Shown here: positions 1-6,833 of the stretch, in pieces
Position numbering within the stretch: position 1 is the first letter of the stretch
Layout of the letters: each line of letters begins with the position of its first letter
IMG/VR virus record: IMGVR_UViG_2663762857_000020
Length of the DNA: 6,833 nucleotides
Reading direction: 5' to 3' (one strand)
Source of the DNA: a virus
Taxonomy: Duplodnaviria; Heunggongvirae; Uroviricota; Caudoviricetes
Made by a program: the position numbers and the translations under genes
Notes under the pieces: generated by a model
What the model was told of the DNA's origin: nothing
Seen by the model: only the letters and a program-made list of their open reading frames with translations
The model's database searches: none

Positions 1-50
1 TGATTGACAGTGTGAAGGTGGAAGTGAACAACGCGGATGCCGCGGCATGA
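1..50 (+). CDS. 3' end of an upstream gene (C-terminus ...IDSVKVEVNNADAAA*); product unknown, position suggests the late antiterminator Q but this is unverified
   Basis: Only the frame starting at nt 3 is open through the window edge, ending at TGA 48-50; E. coli-like codon choice. Only 15 codons visible, so weak. Confidence 0.35.
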   Translation, partial: IDSVKVEVNNADAAA

Positions 51-88
51 TAAAAAAAGCCGCCAGCGGCAGGAATGGAAGCTGGCGG
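51..88 (-). terminator. Putative intrinsic-terminator-like hairpin, oriented for the minus strand
   Basis: 8-bp GC-rich stem (60-67 CCGCCAGC pairs with 81-88 GCTGGCGG), 13-nt loop, immediately flanked by an A7 run at 52-58 on the + strand, which is a U-run after the stem on the minus strand. No U-tract follows the stem on the + strand. Confidence 0.3.
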
Positions 89-185
89 AGGTAATCCCAA
101 TGGAGAATGTAAAGAAAAGATGCTTTCGTATATCGGTCTTTTAAATGAAAACAGTTCTCATTGTCAACCATAACGGTAATAAACT

Positions 186-380
186 ATGACATTTATTCAT
201 CAGGTGATGCTGTACTTCTGTACGGCGGTCTGTGTGCTGTATCTTCTTTCGGGTGGGTACAGGGCAGTGCGCGATTTCTGGCGCAGGCAGATTGATAAAA
301 GGGCCGCAGAGAAAATCAGCGCCAGTCAGTCAGCCGGAGCAAAAACAGAAGCCCCACTCATTCCGGAACAACCTTCTTAA
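186..380 (+). CDS. Hypothetical small protein (64 aa) with one predicted N-terminal transmembrane helix
   Basis: ORF from the six-frame track; hydrophobic stretch VMLYFCTAVCVLYLLSGGY followed by a charged tail. No clear Shine-Dalgarno; no homolog recognised. Confidence 0.3.
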   Translation: MTFIHQVMLYFCTAVCVLYLLSGGYRAVRDFWRRQIDKRAAEKISASQSAGAKTEAPLIPEQPS

Positions 381-405
381 TAACCCCTTTCAACGAGAAA
401 ATCCT

Positions 406-696
406 ATGTCAGAAATAAAATCGCTGGTCACTGCTGAGGCAGTGAAGGAAGTCCTGCGCTCTGAAGAAGTCCGGAGCGCACTGAAACAGCAACTTCGGCA
501 GAACCTTGAGGCGCGTCTTGATGCAGAAGTGGATTCAATTCTGGATGAATTGCTTGGTGCACAGCCGGAACCATCCCCGGAACTGCTTCCGGAACCACAG
601 GCGGAAGATGTCACCACGGAAAATGGTGATATTCAGCCGGAGCCACCGGTGACGGATATGACAGACACACAGCCAGAATCGGGCACAATGCTGTAA
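406..696 (+). CDS. Hypothetical acidic protein (96 aa), helical N-terminal half and Pro/Glu-rich C-terminal half
   Basis: ATG at 406 preceded by a weak SD (GAG ~9 nt upstream). The track ORF 232..696 is the same frame with an upstream ATG lacking an RBS and overlapping the 186..380 ORF, so the 406 start is preferred. About 22 D/E versus 7 K/R by hand count. Confidence 0.5.
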   Translation: MSEIKSLVTAEAVKEVLRSEEVRSALKQQLRQNLEARLDAEVDSILDELLGAQPEPSPELLPEPQAEDVTTENGDIQPEPPVTDMTDTQPESGTML

Positions 697-771
697 CGGT
701 GAGTCAGGGTCATCAGTAAAGAGCTGGTGGCCCTTTTGTTGTTGTGAGCTTCCGAGTACGGGAGACGGGGT

Positions 772-987
772 ATGTACCAGATGGAAAAAATCACAACAGG
801 TGTGTCATACACCACGTCAGCGGTGGGAACGGGCTACTGGTTCCTGCAGTTGCTGGACAGGGTTTCCCCGTCTCAGTGGGCGGCAATAGGCGTGCTGGGG
901 AGTCTGTTGTTTGGGCTGCTGACATATCTGACTAACCTGTATTTCAAAATCAGAGAGGACCGTCGTAAGGCGGCGCGGGGAGAGTAA
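772..987 (+). CDS. essQ: Class II holin / pinholin of the phage 21 S21 (EssD/EssQ) family, 71 aa, with dual-start motif
   Basis: Protein [71 protein letters not shown] matches recalled S21/EssD/EssQ sequence nearly residue for residue. Two transmembrane segments, charged C-terminus, Met1 and Met4 starts, strong SD GGGAGACGGGG at 760-770. Confidence 0.9.
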
Positions 988-991
988 AGCG

Positions 992-1336
992 ATGAAGAAA
1001 AAATACGAACTGGTTGTTAAAGGGATAAATAATTACCCGAATAAGATTACTGTTACTGTGGCACTGGAAATTGGTGGGTATCCGTCACTGTTGTTGCCAG
1101 ATGTGGCGATTAGTCTTGACCGTACTGAAGATGCCACGCTGGAGTTTTACGAAGCTGAGGCGAAAAAGCAGGCGAAGCAGTTTTTCATGGATGTTGCTGC
1201 CGGGTTATGTGAAGGGGATGGTCCGTTGCCGGAAAAGCGCCCCGTAATTTTAGAGGCGCAGGATGTGTTGATAACCTACAGAGGAAAACTACCGGGAATA
1301 ATTACTGGTTCTCTGAAGACTCCACCGCTGGCCTGA
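992..1336 (+). CDS. Small hypothetical protein (114 aa) between holin and endolysin; tentatively DUF1327/YdfR-like
   Basis: ORF starts 4 nt after the holin stop, with GGGGAGAG upstream (translational coupling likely). It occupies the position of ydfR between essQ and rrrQ in the E. coli Qin prophage. The family assignment is from memory of gene order, not sequence comparison. Confidence 0.6.
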   Translation: MKKKYELVVKGINNYPNKITVTVALEIGGYPSLLLPDVAISLDRTEDATLEFYEAEAKKQAKQFFMDVAAGLCEGDGPLPEKRPVILEAQDVLITYRGKLPGIITGSLKTPPLA

Positions 1337-1386
1337 AGACTTAACATATCCAGGGATTTGAAATCGATAAACCCTGATAAATATCC

Positions 1387-2424
1387 ATGAACACCAAAAT
1401 CAAATACGGCCTGTCGGCTGCCGTTCTGGCGCTGATTGCCGCAGGTGCGCCTGCGCCTGAAATCCTCGACCAGTTTCTGGATGAAAAGGAAGGTAACCAC
1501 ACCACGGCATACCGTGATGGCGCGGGTATCTGGACCATCTGCCGCGGTGCCATCCTGGTGGATAGTAAACCTGTCGTTCCGGGCATGAAGTTGTCGAAGG
1601 AAAAATGCGACCAGGTTAACGCCATTGAGCGTGATAAAGCGCTGGCGTGGGTGGAGAAAAACATCAGAGTGCCGCTGACCGAACCCCAGAAAGCGGGGAT
1701 CGCGTCATTCTGTCCGTACAACATTGGTCCCGGTAAGTGTTTCCCGTCGACGTTTTACAGACGAATTAATGCTGGTGATCGCAGGGGAGCATGCGAGGCG
1801 ATTCGCTGGTGGATTAAGGACGGTGAGCGGTATTTTTTCTGTAATGAGCTGAATGAAAAAGGGGAGCCGGTCACCTGGCAGGGGCGGCAATATCAGGCGT
1901 ACCCGATTGAGGGGAGTGGCTTTGAGATGAACGGAAAGGGCAGCAGTGCCCGCCCGTCGCTGACGGTGTCCAATCTTTTCGGCCTTGTCACCGGAATGGC
2001 GGAGGATTTGCAGAGCCTGGTGGGGGCCACGGTGGTCCGCCGCCGGGTGTATGCCCGTTTTCTGGATGCGGTGAATTTCGTTGCGGGCAATCCGGAAGCG
2101 GACCCGGAGCAGGAGCTGAGTGACCGCTGGGTGGTGGAGCAGATGTCGCAGCTGACAGCCATGACGGCCTCGTTTGTGCTGGCCACACCGACCGAGACGG
2201 ACGGGGCGCTGTTTCCCGGTCGTATCATGCTGGCGAACACCTGTATGTGGACCTACCGCTCTGATGAGTGTGGTTACACGGGCGGGGCTGTGGCGGATGA
2301 GTTCGATAAACCCACCACGGATATCCGTAAGGACAGATGCAGCAAGTGCATGCGCGGGTGTGAACTGCGCAGGAATGTCGGCAATTTTGGCGGTTTCCTT
2401 TCCATTAATAAACTTTCGCAGTAA
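1387..2424 (+). CDS. Chimeric ORF (345 aa): SAR-type lysozyme of the R21/RrrD family (T4-lysozyme-like, GH24), residues ~1-146, fused in frame to the C-terminal ~198 residues of lambda-type minor tail protein L
   Basis: N-terminus has a Gly/Ala-rich SAR segment (YGLSAAVLALIAAGAPAP) and the E-8aa-D-5aa-T catalytic spacing (E35, D44, T50 in EGNHTTAYRDGAGIWT). From ERYFFCNELNEKGEPVTWQGRQYQ to the C-terminal NVGNFGGFLSINKLSQ it matches recalled lambda L from about residue 33 onward, including the four C-terminal cysteines. Junction is at codons 146/147 (nt 1822-1827). The lysozyme C-terminus and the L N-terminus are both missing. Confidence 0.8.
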   Translation: MNTKIKYGLSAAVLALIAAGAPAPEILDQFLDEKEGNHTTAYRDGAGIWTICRGAILVDSKPVVPGMKLSKEKCDQVNAIERDKALAWVEKNIRVPLTEPQKAGIASFCPYNIGPGKCFPSTFYRRINAGDRRGACEAIRWWIKDGERYFFCNELNEKGEPVTWQGRQYQAYPIEGSGFEMNGKGSSARPSLTVSNLFGLVTGMAEDLQSLVGATVVRRRVYARFLDAVNFVAGNPEADPEQELSDRWVVEQMSQLTAMTASFVLATPTETDGALFPGRIMLANTCMWTYRSDECGYTGGAVADEFDKPTTDIRKDRCSKCMRGCELRRNVGNFGGFLSINKLSQ

Positions 2425-3756: not shown

Positions 3757-3760
3757 AAAG

Positions 3761-3798
3761 AATAAAAAAAATCCCGCAGTGATCGCGGAGCTGCGGGG
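3761..3798 (-). terminator. Rho-independent terminator, minus strand
   Basis: Minus-strand RNA reads CCCCGCAG-(11-nt loop)-CUGCGGG followed directly by UUUUUUUU (+ strand A-run 3763-3770). 7-bp GC-rich stem at 3773-3779 / 3791-3797. No U-tract follows the stem on the + strand. Confidence 0.7.
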
Positions 3799-3858
3799 AC
3801 AGACAAAGATTAGAGTTAAGGAGTTGTTTTTGTTACTCGGGCAAAAAAACACTAACGC
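3762..3858 (-). ncRNA. Candidate small RNA (~95 nt) in the I-J intergenic insert, antisense to the tail operon
   Basis: Bounded by the minus-strand promoter at 3865-3892 (predicted start near G at 3858) and the terminator at 3761-3798. No ATG in the transcribed segment. Predicted RNA has a 5' stem (GUUUUUU / AAAAAC), a single-stranded CA-rich and CU-rich region (AACAAAAACAACUCCUUAACUCUAAUCUUUGUCUGU) and a terminator with U-tail, the layout typical of Hfq-dependent sRNAs. Confidence 0.45.
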
Positions 3859-3864
3859 AGCGAA

Positions 3865-3892
3865 ATTATACGCGCCACAGTCAGTTTGTGAA
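3865..3892 (-). promoter_or_regulatory. Sigma70-type promoter, minus strand: -35 TTCACA, 16-bp spacer, -10 TATAAT
   Basis: Minus strand reads TTCACAaactgactgtggcgcgTATAAT. The -10 is a perfect consensus (+ strand 3865-3870), the -35 is 5/6 (+ strand 3887-3892), and a purine sits 7 nt downstream. Confidence 0.5.
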
Positions 3893-3964
3893 AATGTGAA
3901 GATATTCAGAATTTTTATGCCATTACCGGTTTTTACCAACAGGATTATCGGTGGACATGAAAGA

Positions 3965-3999
3965 AAACCCCGGTATCTGCTGATACCGGGGTTTCTCTT
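3965..3999. terminator. Strong GC-rich hairpin, terminator-like in both orientations
   Basis: Stem AAACCCCGGTATC (3965-3977) pairs with GATACCGGGGTTT (3982-3994) around a 4-nt loop TGCT. Followed on the + strand by TTTCTCTTT; on the minus strand the stem is followed by a U-rich stretch. A second short inverted repeat, AGCATG (4001-4006) / CATGCT (4021-4026), follows. Confidence 0.35.
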
Positions 4000-4097
4000 T
4001 AGCATGGCAGAAATGTGTTTCATGCTTTTCGGGCGAAGGATATCCGACTTCTGTACGGAATGGCAAGTGGCGGTTAATTTATTCAGGGGAAGGCTGT

Positions 4098-6833
4098 ATG
4101 GGAAAAGGTGGCGGTAAGGCACACACGCCTCGTGAGGCGAAGGATAATCTCAAATCCACGCAGATGATGAGCGTGATTGATGCGGTTGGTGAGGGACCGA
4201 TAGAAGGCCCGGTGAAGGGACTGCAGAGTATCCTGGTGAACAAAACCCCGCTGACGGACACGGACGGTAATCCCGTGATACACGGTGTGACGGCGGTCTG
4301 GCGCGCCGGGGAGCAGGAGCAGACACCACCGGAAGGCTTTGAGTCCTCCGGAGCTGAAACTGTACTGGGCGTGGAAGTGACGAAGGCAAAACCGGTGACG
4401 CGCACCATTACGTCCGCGAACATTGACCGCCTGCGGGTTACCTTCGGGGTGCAGTCACTGGTGCAGACCACGTCAAAGGGTGACCGAAACCCGACATCCG
4501 TCCGCCTGCTGATTCAGTTACAGCGTAACGGTAACTGGGTGACAGAAAAGGATGTCACCATTAACGGCAAGACCACCTCGCAGTTTCTGGCGTCGGTGAT
4601 TCTGGATAATCTGCCTCCCCGTCCTTTTAACATCCGGATGGTCCGGGAGACGGCGGACAGCACCACGGACCAGTTGCAGAACAGAACACTCTGGTCATCG
4701 TACACCGAAATCATCGATGTGAAACAGTGCTACCCGAACACGGCGATTGTGGGGCTGCAGGTGGATGCGGAGCAGTTCGGTGGTCAGCAGATGACGGTGA
4801 ACTACCATATCCGCGGTCGCATCATCCAGGTGCCGTCAAACTATGACCCGGAAAAACGCACCTACAGCGGTATCTGGGACGGCAGTCTGAAACCGGCATA
4901 CAGCAACAACCCGGCCTGGTGCCTGTGGGACATGCTGACTCACCCGCGCTACGGGATGGGAAAACGTCTGGGGGCGGCGGATGTGGACAAGTGGGCGCTG
5001 TATGCCATCGGGCAGTACTGCGACCAGACGGTCCCGGATGGTTTCGGGGGCACAGAGCCGCGGATGACCTTTAATGCGTACCTGGCACAACAGCGTAAGG
5101 CGTGGGACGTTCTCAGTGATTTCTGCTCGGCGATGCGCTGTATGCCGGTATGGAACGGCCAGACGCTGACGTTCGTTCAGGACCGCCCGTCGGATGTGGT
5201 GTGGCCGTACACCAACAGCGATGTGGTGGTGGATGATAACGGCGTGGGGTTCCGCTACAGCTTCAGTGCCCTGAAGGACCGGCACACGGCGGTGGAGGTG
5301 AATTACACCGACCCGCAGAACGGCTGGCAGACCTCCACGGAACTGGTGGAAGACCCGGAAGCCATACTGCGCTACGGACGCAACCTGCTGAAGATGGATG
5401 CGTTCGGCTGCACCAGTCGCGGTCAGGCCCACCGTGCCGGGCTGTGGGTGATAAAGACAGAACTGCTGGAAACGCAGACGGTGGATTTCACACTCGGGTC
5501 ACAGGGGCTGCGGCACACACCCGGTGACATCATTGAAATCTGTGATAACGACTATGCCGGAACCCTGACCGGCGGACGTGTCCTGTCCATTGATGCTGCC
5601 ACCCGCACCCTGACGCTGGACCGTGAAGTGACACTTCCGGGGACAGGTACATCGACGGTGAACCTGATTAACGGCAGCGGTAAGCCGGTGAGTGTGGACA
5701 TCACCGCACACCCCGCGCCGGACCGGATACAGGTCAGTACCCTGCCTGATGGTGTGGAGACATACGGGGTGTGGGGACTCTCCCTGCCGTCACTGCGCCG
5801 TCGCCTGTTCCGCTGTGTCTCCATCCGGGAAAACACGGACGGCACCTTTGCCATCACGGCGGTGCAGCACGTACCGGAAAAAGAAGCCATTGTGGATAAC
5901 GGAGCCCGCTTTGAGCCGCAGTCAGGCACCCTGAACAGCGTTATCCCACCGGCAGTACAGCACCTCACGGTGGAGGTGAGCGCAGCTGACAGCCAGTATC
6001 TGGCGCTGGCGAAATGGGACACGCCGAGGGTGGTGAAGGGCGTGCGCTTCAGTCTGCGCCTGACCAGTGGAAGCGATGAGAACAGCCGCCTGCTGACCAC
6101 CGCCATCACTGCCGATACGGAGCACCGTTTCAGTGGCCTGCCTCTCGGGGAATACACCCTGACGGTCAGGGCGATAAACAGCTACGGCCAGCAGGGCGAA
6201 CCGGCCACCACCACGTTCCGGATTAATGCGCCTGCAGCACCGGCCACCATTGAGCTGACGCCGGGGTATTTTCAGATAACGGCGGTACCGCGTCTTGCGG
6301 TGTATGACCCGACGGTGCAGTTTGAGTTCTGGTTTTCGGAGGCAAAAATTGCAGACGCCGCACAGGTGGAAACCTCTGCCCGTTATCTGGGGACCGGCAG
6401 TCAGTGGAGTGTCTCCGGTCCGCACATTAAGCCCGGAAAGGATTTCTGGTTTTATGTGCGCAGCGTCAACCTGGTGGGTAAATCTGCTTTTGTGGAAGCC
6501 AGTGGACGGGCGAGCAATGATGCTGCGGGCTATCTGGAACTTTTCCGGGAAAAGATAGGAAAAACGCATCTGGCAGAGGCGCTGTGGGCAGAGATTGACA
6601 ACAGTCAGCTGAAGGACGAGATGGCGGAAATGCAGACCACCATCACCGAAACCCGCAATGAAATCACACAGACGGTCAGTAAAACGCTGGAGGACCAGAG
6701 CGCCACCATACAGCAAATCCAGCGTGTGCAGACGGACACCCGTAATGACCTGAACAGCATGTGGGCGGTGAAGCTGCAGAAGATGCAGGACGGACGCCTT
6801 TATATTGCCGGTATTGGTGCAGGCATTGAGAAT
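4098..6833 (+). CDS. J: Tail tip / host specificity protein J, N-terminal 912 codons (3' end beyond the window)
   Basis: ATG at 4098 with SD AGGGGAAGG. Hand translation is open and in frame to the window end. Matches recalled lambda J from the N-terminus (MGKG..HTPREAKDNLKSTQ..) through conserved blocks (NPAWCLWDMLTHPRYGMGKRLGAADVDKWALY, RLFRCVSIRENTDGTFAITAVQHVPEKEAIVDNGA, VYDPTVQFEFWFSE). The last ~100 residues in the window diverge from lambda. Confidence 0.95.
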   Translation, partial: MGKGGGKAHTPREAKDNLKSTQMMSVIDAVGEGPIEGPVKGLQSILVNKTPLTDTDGNPVIHGVTAVWRAGEQEQTPPEGFESSGAETVLGVEVTKAKPVTRTITSANIDRLRVTFGVQSLVQTTSKGDRNPTSVRLLIQLQRNGNWVTEKDVTINGKTTSQFLASVILDNLPPRPFNIRMVRETADSTTDQLQNRTLWSSYTEIIDVKQCYPNTAIVGLQVDAEQFGGQQMTVNYHIRGRIIQVPSNYDPEKRTYSGIWDGSLKPAYSNNPAWCLWDMLTHPRYGMGKRLGAADVDKWALYAIGQYCDQTVPDGFGGTEPRMTFNAYLAQQRKAWDVLSDFCSAMRCMPVWNGQTLTFVQDRPSDVVWPYTNSDVVVDDNGVGFRYSFSALKDRHTAVEVNYTDPQNGWQTSTELVEDPEAILRYGRNLLKMDAFGCTSRGQAHRAGLWVIKTELLETQTVDFTLGSQGLRHTPGDIIEICDNDYAGTLTGGRVLSIDAATRTLTLDREVTLPGTGTSTVNLINGSGKPVSVDITAHPAPDRIQVSTLPDGVETYGVWGLSLPSLRRRLFRCVSIRENTDGTFAITAVQHVPEKEAIVDNGARFEPQSGTLNSVIPPAVQHLTVEVSAADSQYLALAKWDTPRVVKGVRFSLRLTSGSDENSRLLTTAITADTEHRFSGLPLGEYTLTVRAINSYGQQGEPATTTFRINAPAAPATIELTPGYFQITAVPRLAVYDPTVQFEFWFSEAKIADAAQVETSARYLGTGSQWSVSGPHIKPGKDFWFYVRSVNLVGKSAFVEASGRASNDAAGYLELFREKIGKTHLAEALWAEIDNSQLKDEMAEMQTTITETRNEITQTVSKTLEDQSATIQQIQRVQTDTRNDLNSMWAVKLQKMQDGRLYIAGIGAGIEN

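What the first reader, a model, noticed from the sequence alone, without database searches (positions are those of the whole stretch)
406..696. Strongly acidic 96-aa protein in the moron position between the upstream gene and the holin
The slot between Q and S in lambdoid phages often holds cargo (toxins, tRNAs, cold-shock genes). This ORF is highly acidic (roughly 22 D/E against 7 K/R), with a helical, possibly coiled-coil N-terminal half and a Pro/Glu-rich, probably disordered C-terminal half. That composition recalls DNA-mimic or anti-restriction proteins and other small phage inhibitors, but the resemblance is compositional only.
Basis: inference. Interest (0 to 1): 0.5.

Follow-up and report, generated by a model that had tools for sequence, protein, structure and literature searches.

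The report
Known DUF826 gene in esterase cassette
The acidic 96-residue ORF is a real, conserved gene of the already catalogued but uncharacterised DUF826 family of Shiga-toxin-type prophages, and it travels with a sialic-acid esterase and a tiny membrane protein; nothing supports a DNA-mimic role.

Summary
Window 406..696 (+) encodes a 96-aa protein with 22 D/E, 7 K/R and pI 4.05. AlphaFold2 gives a helical N-terminal half and an unstructured Pro/Glu-rich C-terminal half. It lies between a DUF1378 membrane-protein gene and a P21-type holin.

It is not new. It matches Pfam DUF826 (E=2e-28) and PHROG 311. Identical proteins are already in NCBI. It occurs in 307 phage records, mostly Stx-converting, and in about 19% of complete E. 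coli genomes. In phage 933W it is L0106. No function is published.

The gene is intact in 94/94 related loci, with dN/dS of 0.1-0.6.

The new point is its context. It is the last gene of a cassette: NanS-p-type sialate O-acetylesterase, DUF1378, DUF826, intrinsic terminator. The same cassette sits in Mu-like E. coli prophages between gin and com/mom, with no holin nearby. So the esterase and DUF1378 are its constant partners, not the holin.

The acidic tail varies in sequence but keeps its composition and a hydrophobic C-terminus (…TML/MML/MMM). A Salmonella clade without esterase and DUF1378 neighbours lacks this tail.

No fold, PDB or defence-family match supports a DNA mimic.

My best guess (inference) is a cytoplasmic partner of DUF1378 that serves the esterase cargo. 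This is a known family with moderate-to-low interest.

The parts
1..50 (+). 3' end of a NanS-p-type (SASA family) sialate O-acetylesterase gene; reads ...IDSVKVEVNNADAAA*
   Evidence: Sequence. E. coli hits that cover window 1-1400 are annotated 'SASA family carbohydrate esterase'. A SASA gene lies directly upstream of DUF1378 in every main-clade locus with enough upstream sequence; in three of them (L054, L063, L071) the match is split or truncated.
186..380 (+). DUF1378 gene: 64-aa single-pass membrane protein with an N-terminal TM segment (about residues 3-25), a basic juxtamembrane helix RAVRDFWRRQIDKRAAEKI, and a variable tail
   Evidence: Pfam PF07125 E=8.9e-35; phrog_494. Hydropathy and alignment across lineages. 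Found in 309 phage records against 307 for DUF826.
406..696 (+). The finding: DUF826 gene, 96 aa, pI 4.05. Conserved helical N-domain (residues 1-51) and an acidic, Pro-rich, disordered tail (52-96) that ends in the hydrophobic ...GTML
706..745 (+). Intrinsic-terminator-like element: 12-bp stem (AGGGTCATCAGT/GCTGGTGGCCCT), 5-nt loop, then TTTGTTGTTG. It closes the esterase-DUF1378-DUF826 unit ahead of the holin.
   Evidence: A hairpin lies at the same place in all lineages examined, with unrelated stem sequences. A clear T-run follows it in the lambdoid main clade, the Mu-like lineage and the Salmonella far clade, but is weak or absent in two Citrobacter lineages (L089, L090).
772..987 (+). 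P21-type class II holin S (71 aa, dual start MYQM...), the downstream neighbour. It is not part of the conserved cassette.
   Evidence: Pfam PF04971 E=9e-33. Absent next to DUF826 in Mu-like prophages.

Best explanation
Window 406..696 is a functional member of the DUF826 family. It is the last gene of a mobile three-gene cargo cassette that ends in an intrinsic terminator: NanS-p-type sialate O-acetylesterase, then DUF1378, then DUF826. In lambdoid and Stx phages the cassette sits in the late operon just upstream of the pinholin.

Shown here:
- The gene is conserved and under purifying selection.
- It co-occurs almost one-to-one with DUF1378.
- In the main clade it lies behind a SASA esterase in both lambdoid and Mu-like prophages.
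- It is followed by a terminator-like hairpin.
- Its product has no signal peptide or TM segment. It consists of a roughly 50-residue conserved helical domain and an acidic, lysine/arginine-free disordered tail of 28-50 residues with a conserved hydrophobic C-terminal tip.

Inferred mechanism: the protein is cytoplasmic and works as the soluble partner of DUF1378. Its mildly acidic helical domain docks on the conserved basic juxtamembrane helix of DUF1378 at the inner face of the membrane. The acidic tail then presents the hydrophobic C-terminal tip as a tethered short linear motif to a third partner. Together they serve the co-inherited esterase cargo, for example by handling it or by helping its timing or release at lysis. 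It is a dispensable accessory, not a DNA mimic and not a core lysis protein.
For: Family membership: Pfam DUF826 at 98.8 bits and phrog_311.

Real gene: 94/94 loci intact, with dN/dS of 0.1-0.3 in the N-domain and 0.3-0.6 in the tail.

Cassette in lambdoid phages: 80 IMG/VR loci plus 933W and PhiR5_1 show SASA, DUF1378, DUF826, then holin at 79-82 nt spacing.

Cassette without a holin: the same esterase-DUF1378-DUF826-terminator block lies between gin and com/mom of Mu-like E. coli prophages. Citrobacter lineages keep the SASA, DUF1378 and DUF826 order.

Co-occurrence across 50,697 phage records: DUF826 307, DUF1378 309, NanS-p 351, S21 holin 434.

Terminator: hairpins with unrelated stem sequences sit right after the stop in independent lineages.

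Tail: composition and hydrophobic tip are kept despite sequence turnover. The long tail is present only in the clade that has SASA and DUF1378 neighbours.

DUF1378: conserved TM segment and a basic helix with 7 K/R against 3 D/E in 20 residues.

Expression: nanS-p rises 1-2.4 log on mitomycin C induction, as late genes do (PMC10462455).
Against: - No direct evidence exists for any physical interaction. The DUF1378 docking and the link to the esterase are inferred only from gene linkage and charge complementarity.
- Tight linkage could reflect common descent of one DNA block rather than shared function.
- About 44 phage records with NanS-p, including Stx1a phages that also have the same holin, lack DUF1378 and DUF826. 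The esterase therefore does not need them.
- The Salmonella far clade of DUF826 stands without SASA or DUF1378, next to Rz and a different gene cluster. The N-domain must therefore have a role that does not depend on the esterase.
- The AlphaFold2 model has only moderate confidence (mean pLDDT 63).
Confidence: 0.4

Rival explanations
1. Lysis-timing modulator. DUF1378 in the membrane and DUF826 in the cytoplasm tune the P21-type pinholin or SAR-endolysin system. This would be loosely analogous to the T4 RI/RIII antiholin pair, for example through the acidic tail binding the basic cytoplasmic C-terminus of S21 (…[13 protein letters not shown]).
For: In every lambdoid locus the gene lies 79-82 nt upstream of a P21-type holin. 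It is co-transcribed late. The far-clade homologues also lie in the lysis region, after Rz. DUF1378 resembles small holin or antiholin-like membrane proteins: one TM segment and a charged C-tail.
Against: The cassette occurs in Mu-like prophages with no holin nearby. A terminator separates it from S. At least 127 phage records with S21-type holins lack DUF826. DUF826, DUF1378 and holin alleles reassort freely. The T4 RIII analogy comes from memory and no sequence comparison was made.
Confidence: 0.2
2. Small membrane toxin or exclusion protein (DUF1378) with a protein antidote or regulator (DUF826). The pair would be self-contained, for example superinfection exclusion or membrane perturbation, and only hitch-hikes with the esterase.
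For: DUF1378 and DUF826 co-occur almost one-to-one (309 against 307 phage records). A basic membrane-proximal helix faces an acidic soluble helix. The pair is present or absent as a unit.
Against: No match to any PADLOC defence model. No σ70-like promoter of its own was found in window 1-405. In the main clade the pair is never seen without an esterase upstream.
Confidence: 0.12
3. One reading: an acidic DNA mimic, anti-restriction protein or other small inhibitor of a host defence or repair protein.
For: Strongly acidic overall (22 D/E against 7 K/R, pI 4.05). Small helical acidic phage inhibitors do exist (own knowledge). A tethered acidic tail with a hydrophobic tip could in principle mimic a host protein tail.
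Against: The folded domain has a net charge of only about -4, and the rest of the charge is in a disordered, sequence-variable tail. No PDB, Pfam or BFVD similarity to any known mimic. It sits in the late operon, is terminator-bounded behind an esterase, and is kept in defective prophages such as this window. A Salmonella clade lacks the long acidic tail altogether.
Confidence: 0.06
4. Virion or head-completion factor, as a few GenBank records annotate it.
For: It is labelled 'head completion protein' in PhiR5_1, phiSTEC1589-Stx1c, phiSTEC801-Stx1a and phiXuzhou21-Stx2a.
Against: PHROG 311 is 'unknown function'. The gene lies outside the morphogenesis block. It occurs in lambdoid and Mu-like prophages and in 933W, a Sepvirinae phage, whose virion modules differ (own knowledge). 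It is retained in this window's prophage, which has lost its head genes.
Confidence: 0.02

Closest known systems
Pfam PF05696 (DUF826) / PHROG 311; gene L0106 of Stx2 phage 933W
   Same: Full-length match: 98.8 bits to Pfam and E=5e-37 to PHROG. Proteins identical over all 96 residues, called as 134 aa, are in NCBI. Same position behind nanS-p and DUF1378 and before S as in 933W.
   Different: Nothing essential. This allele has the 96-aa '...GTML' tail, whereas 933W has the 90-aa '...VMML' tail. It sits in a defective prophage. The family has no assigned function.
Lambdoid 'moron' cassettes (a cargo gene bounded by a terminator, inserted between conserved late genes, for example stx, bor, lom)
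   Same: It is an optional insertion between Q and S. It is closed by an intrinsic terminator that Q-modified polymerase would read through (the Q mechanism is established knowledge). It also moves into an unrelated (Mu-like) phage type.
   Different: No σ70-like promoter of its own was detected in the window. It is one gene of a three-gene unit, not a single-gene moron.
Tethered C-terminal-motif proteins such as SSB (oligomerising domain, Pro/Gly/Gln-rich disordered linker, acidic-hydrophobic tip)
   Same: The architectural logic is shared: a conserved folded N-domain, a low-complexity linker of variable length, and a conserved acidic stretch that ends in hydrophobic residues.
   Different: No sequence similarity. 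The tip is ...TML/MML/MMM and not ...DDDIPF. The N-domain is a helix and not an OB fold. This is a resemblance from memory and was not tested.
DNA-mimic / anti-restriction proteins (Ocr, ArdA, T7 gp5.9 and similar)
   Same: Small size and low pI.
   Different: No sequence or fold similarity. The acidic charge is largely in a disordered tail. The gene is in a late-operon location.

Membership tests
DUF826 (Pfam PF05696 / PHROG 311) | Score above the curated Pfam gathering threshold over the N-terminal domain | tested here: met
   98.8 bits against a cut-off of 25, E=1.9e-28, residues 1-57 on model positions 1-59. phrog_311 E=5.2e-37 over residues 1-96.
DUF826 (Pfam PF05696 / PHROG 311) | Conserved N-domain residues (T9, V13, K14, L17, K27, V42, G51 invariant across distant members) | tested here: met
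   All are present in the window protein (alignments A1 and A2).
DUF826 (Pfam PF05696 / PHROG 311) | Typical genomic context: directly downstream of DUF1378 and of a SASA/NanS-p esterase | tested here: met
   Window genes at 1-50, 186-380 and 406-696. The order SASA, DUF1378, DUF826 holds in all main-clade loci with enough upstream sequence; in three the SASA match is split or truncated.
Moron (autonomous cargo cassette in a lambdoid late operon) | Optional presence between conserved phage genes | tested here: met
   Stx1a phage LC567823 has nanS-p and an S21 holin but only 450 nt of non-coding DNA in place of DUF1378 and DUF826. Record counts are 307 for DUF826 against 351 for NanS-p and 434 for the holin.
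Moron (autonomous cargo cassette in a lambdoid late operon) | Terminator at the 3' end | tested here: met
   12-bp stem with a T-run at 706-745. Equivalent hairpins sit at the same place in other lineages, with a clear T-run in the lambdoid, Mu-like and Salmonella ones.
Moron (autonomous cargo cassette in a lambdoid late operon) | Own promoter | tested here: inconclusive
   No σ70-like site on the + strand in window 1-1500. The start of the cassette, upstream of nanS-p, lies outside the window.
DNA-mimic / anti-restriction proteins | Sequence or profile similarity to a known family (ArdA, Ocr, etc.) | tested here: not met
   Pfam lists only DUF826 above threshold; the other hits have E≥0.08. 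Best PDB E=0.86. NCBIfam gives nothing significant.
DNA-mimic / anti-restriction proteins | Compact fold that displays a DNA-like array of carboxylates | tested here: not met
   The AlphaFold2 model is one short and one long helix plus a 46-residue disordered tail. No Foldseek hit in BFVD with E≤0.001. Oligomeric states could not be modelled.
DNA-mimic / anti-restriction proteins | Inhibition of restriction enzymes or DNA-binding enzymes | not testable with these tools
   Requires an experiment.
Antiholin / lysis-inhibition accessory (T4 RI/RIII-like logic) | Obligate association with a holin gene | tested here: not met
   Mu-like prophages carry esterase-DUF1378-DUF826 between gin and com/mom with no holin adjacent.
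Antiholin / lysis-inhibition accessory (T4 RI/RIII-like logic) | Binding to the holin and a change in lysis timing | not testable with these tools
   Requires genetics or biochemistry.

The most novel reading that the evidence does not exclude
DUF1378 and DUF826 form a previously unrecognised two-protein, membrane-tethered device dedicated to the phage-borne sialate O-acetylesterase NanS-p. It might dock the signal-peptide-less enzyme at the inner membrane, or gate its activity or release around the time of lysis, using the acidic tail and its hydrophobic C-terminal tip as the docking motif. This would be a new kind of cargo-handling accessory in Shiga-toxin phages and would bear on how NanS-p, which is abundant in EHEC supernatants independently of T1SS, T2SS and T3SS (PMC12962677), reaches the outside.
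Probability: 0.15. Interest if true: 0.6.

Novelty: already known. Interest (0 to 1): 0.3.

Why it matters
DUF826 and DUF1378 are among the most widespread uncharacterised genes of Shiga-toxin-converting phages. DUF826 is in 307 phage records and in about one in five complete E. coli genomes, with up to 7 copies per genome. The pair lies between the toxin/esterase cargo and the lysis genes that release them.

Showing that the pair is tied to the NanS-p esterase cassette, and not to the holin or to anti-restriction, narrows the experiments needed to assign a function. If the pair affects esterase handling or lysis timing, it would be relevant to toxin and enzyme release by EHEC. As it stands, the finding is an ordinary member of a known family of unknown function.

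Tried and rejected
- PDB sequence search: nothing (best E=0.86).
- PADLOC and NCBIfam: nothing significant.
- Foldseek of the AlphaFold2 model against BFVD: no hit with E≤0.001. The model is a helix plus a disordered tail, so the other fold libraries were not tried.
- Rfam and tRNA scans of the window: nothing in or near the ORF.
- Two scans of GTDB species-representative genomes found no relative. The patterns were narrow, so this shows only that the family is rare among representative genomes.
- Literature: 'DUF826' appears in one paper, as unknown function. 'DUF1378' in a second paper is a typo for DUF1738. 'L0106'+'933W' gave nothing, and a locus-tag search gave nothing on this gene.
- Programmed frameshift joining DUF1378 to DUF826: considered because database 'fusion' proteins exist (P0032, P0068, phrog_8301) and the +1 frame is open for 58-66 codons upstream of the ATG. 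Rejected as a general feature. The open frame shrinks to 8 codons in a Citrobacter lineage and 22 in the far clade, and each lineage has its own Shine-Dalgarno sequence and ATG. The fusions look like 1-nt differences in the AAAA run at window 297-300.
- 'Head completion protein' annotation: rejected; see the rival explanations.
- A pseudo-complex AlphaFold run on a natural fusion protein was considered but not run, because the tool returns no contact or PAE information.

Full report
**1. What is in the window**

ATG 406 to TAA 696 on the + strand encodes 96 aa: MSEIKSLVTAEAVKEVLRSEEVRSALKQQLRQNLEARLDAEVDSILDELLGAQPEPSPELLPEPQAEDVTTENGDIQPEPPVTDMTDTQPESGTML. The protein has 22 D/E, 7 K/R, no His, and pI 4.05. 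The first 50 residues carry 11 D/E, 7 K/R and no proline. The last 46 carry 11 D/E, no K/R and 9 Pro.

The neighbours are as follows:
- 186..380 is a DUF1378 protein.
- 772..987 is a P21-type class II holin with the dual start MYQM.
- 992..1336 is DUF1327/YdfR.
- 1387..2424 is a lysozyme fused in frame to tail protein L. This is a deletion scar, so the window comes from a defective lambdoid prophage. Tail genes K, I and J follow.
- Bases 1-50 are the end of a NanS-p-type SASA esterase gene.

**2. It is a known family**

The protein matches Pfam DUF826 (PF05696) at 98.8 bits against a cut-off of 25, and PHROG 311, which is 'unknown function'. Proteins identical over all 96 residues are already in NCBI as 'DUF826 domain-containing protein'.

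DNA or protein relatives occur in 307 of 50,697 phage records, overwhelmingly Stx1- and Stx2-converting phages. They also occur in 1052 of 5426 complete E. coli genomes, with a median of 2 and up to 7 copies. In phage 933W the gene is L0106.

An exhaustive profile search of 1.84 billion representative proteins found only 54 clusters. The hosts are E. coli/Shigella, Citrobacter and Salmonella.

Only one paper in the library names DUF826, and it calls it a protein of unknown function lying between nanS-p and S (PMC10462455).

**3. It is a real gene with a clear two-part design**

In 94 of 94 fetched loci the ORF is intact and starts at the same ATG. dN/dS is about 0.1-0.3 for codons 1-51 and about 0.3-0.6 for the tail.

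The N-terminal 51 residues are nearly invariant within the main clade. They keep T9, V13, K14, L17, K27, V42 and G51 even in members only 37-48% identical to P0114, the reference of alignment A2.

AlphaFold2 predicts helices at 10-17 and 20-49 (pLDDT 81-89 over residues 21-50) and no structure beyond residue 50.

The tail varies in length (28-50 aa) and in sequence. Its composition is kept: 4-12 D/E, 0-1 K/R with one exception, and 4-10 Pro. Its end is always hydrophobic: GTML, VMML, DMMM, EMMM, ATLL, ATTL, SAMM, TILP. This is the signature of a disordered linker that presents a short C-terminal motif.

The start codon at 406 is supported by the Pfam model and by good Shine-Dalgarno sequences in diverged lineages. 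The longer database calls of 134 and 148 aa run into a frame overlapping DUF1378 and are probably over-extensions.

**4. Context is the informative part**

In 80 IMG/VR loci, 933W and PhiR5_1 the order is always SASA esterase, DUF1378, DUF826, a 79-82-nt spacer, then the P21-type holin.

A diverged but abundant member, P0114, lies in Mu-like E. coli prophages. The order there is baseplate and tail-fibre genes, Gin invertase, SASA/DUF6645 esterase, DUF1378, DUF826, terminator, then Com and Mom, with no holin nearby. Citrobacter lineages keep the SASA, DUF1378, DUF826, holin order.

Counts across complete phage records are DUF826 307, DUF1378 309, NanS-p-like 351 and S21-type holin 434. From these:
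- DUF826 and DUF1378 are essentially inseparable.
- In the main clade both always follow an esterase.
- Neither the esterase nor the holin needs them. For example, Stx1a phage LC567823 has only non-coding DNA in their place.

A terminator-like hairpin follows the DUF826 stop codon. In the window it is a 12-bp stem at 706-734 followed by a T-run. The lambdoid, Mu-like and Salmonella lineages all have a hairpin plus T-run there, with unrelated stem sequences; in two Citrobacter lineages the T-run is weak or absent. The conserved unit is therefore esterase-DUF1378-DUF826-terminator, and the holin is only the next neighbour in lambdoid genomes.

A far clade in Salmonella has just the N-domain with a 9-11-aa tail. 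It stands after Rz and in front of an MptE-like gene (a PHROG annotated 'sialyltransferase'), an unknown gene and a methyltransferase, without SASA or DUF1378. The long acidic tail is thus seen only where SASA and DUF1378 are neighbours. This rests on a comparison of just two clades.

**5. How it probably works (inference)**

DUF826 has no signal peptide or hydrophobic segment: its maximum 19-residue hydropathy is 0.34. It is therefore cytoplasmic.

DUF1378 has one conserved TM segment, MLYFCTxVCxLYLLSGGY. It is followed by a conserved basic amphipathic helix, (K/R)xxRxxxRxxIDxAAxEK, with 7 K/R against 3 D/E. By the positive-inside rule this helix faces the cytoplasm.

The simplest model is that the mildly acidic DUF826 helix docks on this basic helix at the inner face of the membrane. 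The acidic tail would then present its hydrophobic tip to a third partner, in the service of the co-inherited esterase. No interaction was tested.

Expression is expected to be late, because nanS-p rises 1-2.4 log on mitomycin C induction (PMC10462455). NanS-p paralogues lack classical signal peptides yet are abundant in EHEC supernatants independently of T1SS, T2SS and T3SS (PMC12962677). This leaves room for an accessory role, although release through phage lysis also explains it.

**6. Rivals**

- *Lysis-timing role.* This fits the lambdoid position. It is weakened by the holin-free Mu-like context, the intervening terminator and the many S21 holins that lack DUF826.
- *Self-contained membrane-toxin/antidote or exclusion pair.* This is possible but has no support from PADLOC.
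- *DNA mimic or anti-restriction protein.* This has only the low pI in its favour. The folded part is weakly charged, the charge is mostly in a variable disordered tail, and there is no PDB, Pfam or BFVD similarity. The gene also lies in the late operon and is retained in defective prophages.
- *'Head completion protein'.* This label in a few records has no support.

**7. Verdict**

The gene is an ordinary member of an already catalogued family of unknown function. The useful additions from this work are the definition of the esterase-DUF1378-DUF826-terminator cassette, its occurrence in Mu-like prophages, and the conserved hydrophobic C-terminal tip on a compositionally conserved acidic tail.

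Noticed in passing
window 1387..2424: A single 345-aa ORF joins a SAR-type phage lysozyme (residues 33-147) in frame to tail protein L (residues 146-343). This is a deletion scar that removed Rz, the terminase, the head genes and most tail genes, so the prophage is defective. E. coli CEA601S has a similar scar at a different junction.
   Followed up: partly
window 3757..4098: A spacer of about 340 nt lies between tail genes I (ends 3756) and J (ATG 4099). It has no convincing ORF and two strong hairpins (about 3766-3797, and about 3958-3990 followed by a T-rich run). The only Rfam hit is weak (Hrs1, 3764-3835, E=0.7, far below threshold). It is conserved in other E. coli prophages.
   Followed up: no
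window 232..405 (frame of the DUF826 ORF, overlapping DUF1378 186..380): The DUF826 reading frame is open for 58 codons upstream of ATG 406, and for 62-70 codons in most lambdoid relatives. NCBI therefore calls a 134-aa protein from TTG 292. Database 'fusion' proteins (P0032, P0068, phrog_8301) join DUF1378 to this frame at the AAAA run at 297-300. The open frame is not conserved in Citrobacter (8 codons) or the far clade (22 codons), so a programmed frameshift seems unlikely.
   Followed up: partly
window 752..771, just 5' of the holin start: A conserved small hairpin (CTTCCGAGTACGGGAG) lies immediately upstream of the dual-start MYQM of the P21-type holin and is present in nearly all related loci. 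It is probably the known translational-control structure of the S21 dual-start motif.
   Followed up: no
L092 4001-6944, L093, L094 (Salmonella enterica prophages): A short-tailed DUF826 homologue heads a cluster: an MptE-like protein (phrog_4603, annotated 'alpha-2,3-sialyltransferase'), phrog_6804 (unknown), a methyltransferase and a 'minor tail'-like protein, between Rz and the terminase. This is a second neighbour with a sialic-acid-related annotation for the DUF826 N-domain. The PHROG annotation was not verified.
   Followed up: partly
L097 (E. coli STEC2018-607, NZ_CP075697.1 2928470-2945170): A Mu-like prophage is inserted in the cellulose synthase gene bcsA. It carries the esterase-DUF1378-DUF826 cassette between its gin invertase and com/mom. 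The esterase there lacks the N-terminal DUF1737 domain found in the lambdoid NanS-p proteins.
   Followed up: partly
window 51..100: Directly after the esterase stop codon lies an A-run followed by a GC-rich hairpin (GCCGCCAGC...GCTGGCGG). It reads as a terminator only on the minus strand (hairpin plus T7) and has no T-run on the + strand. Its role is unknown.
   Followed up: no
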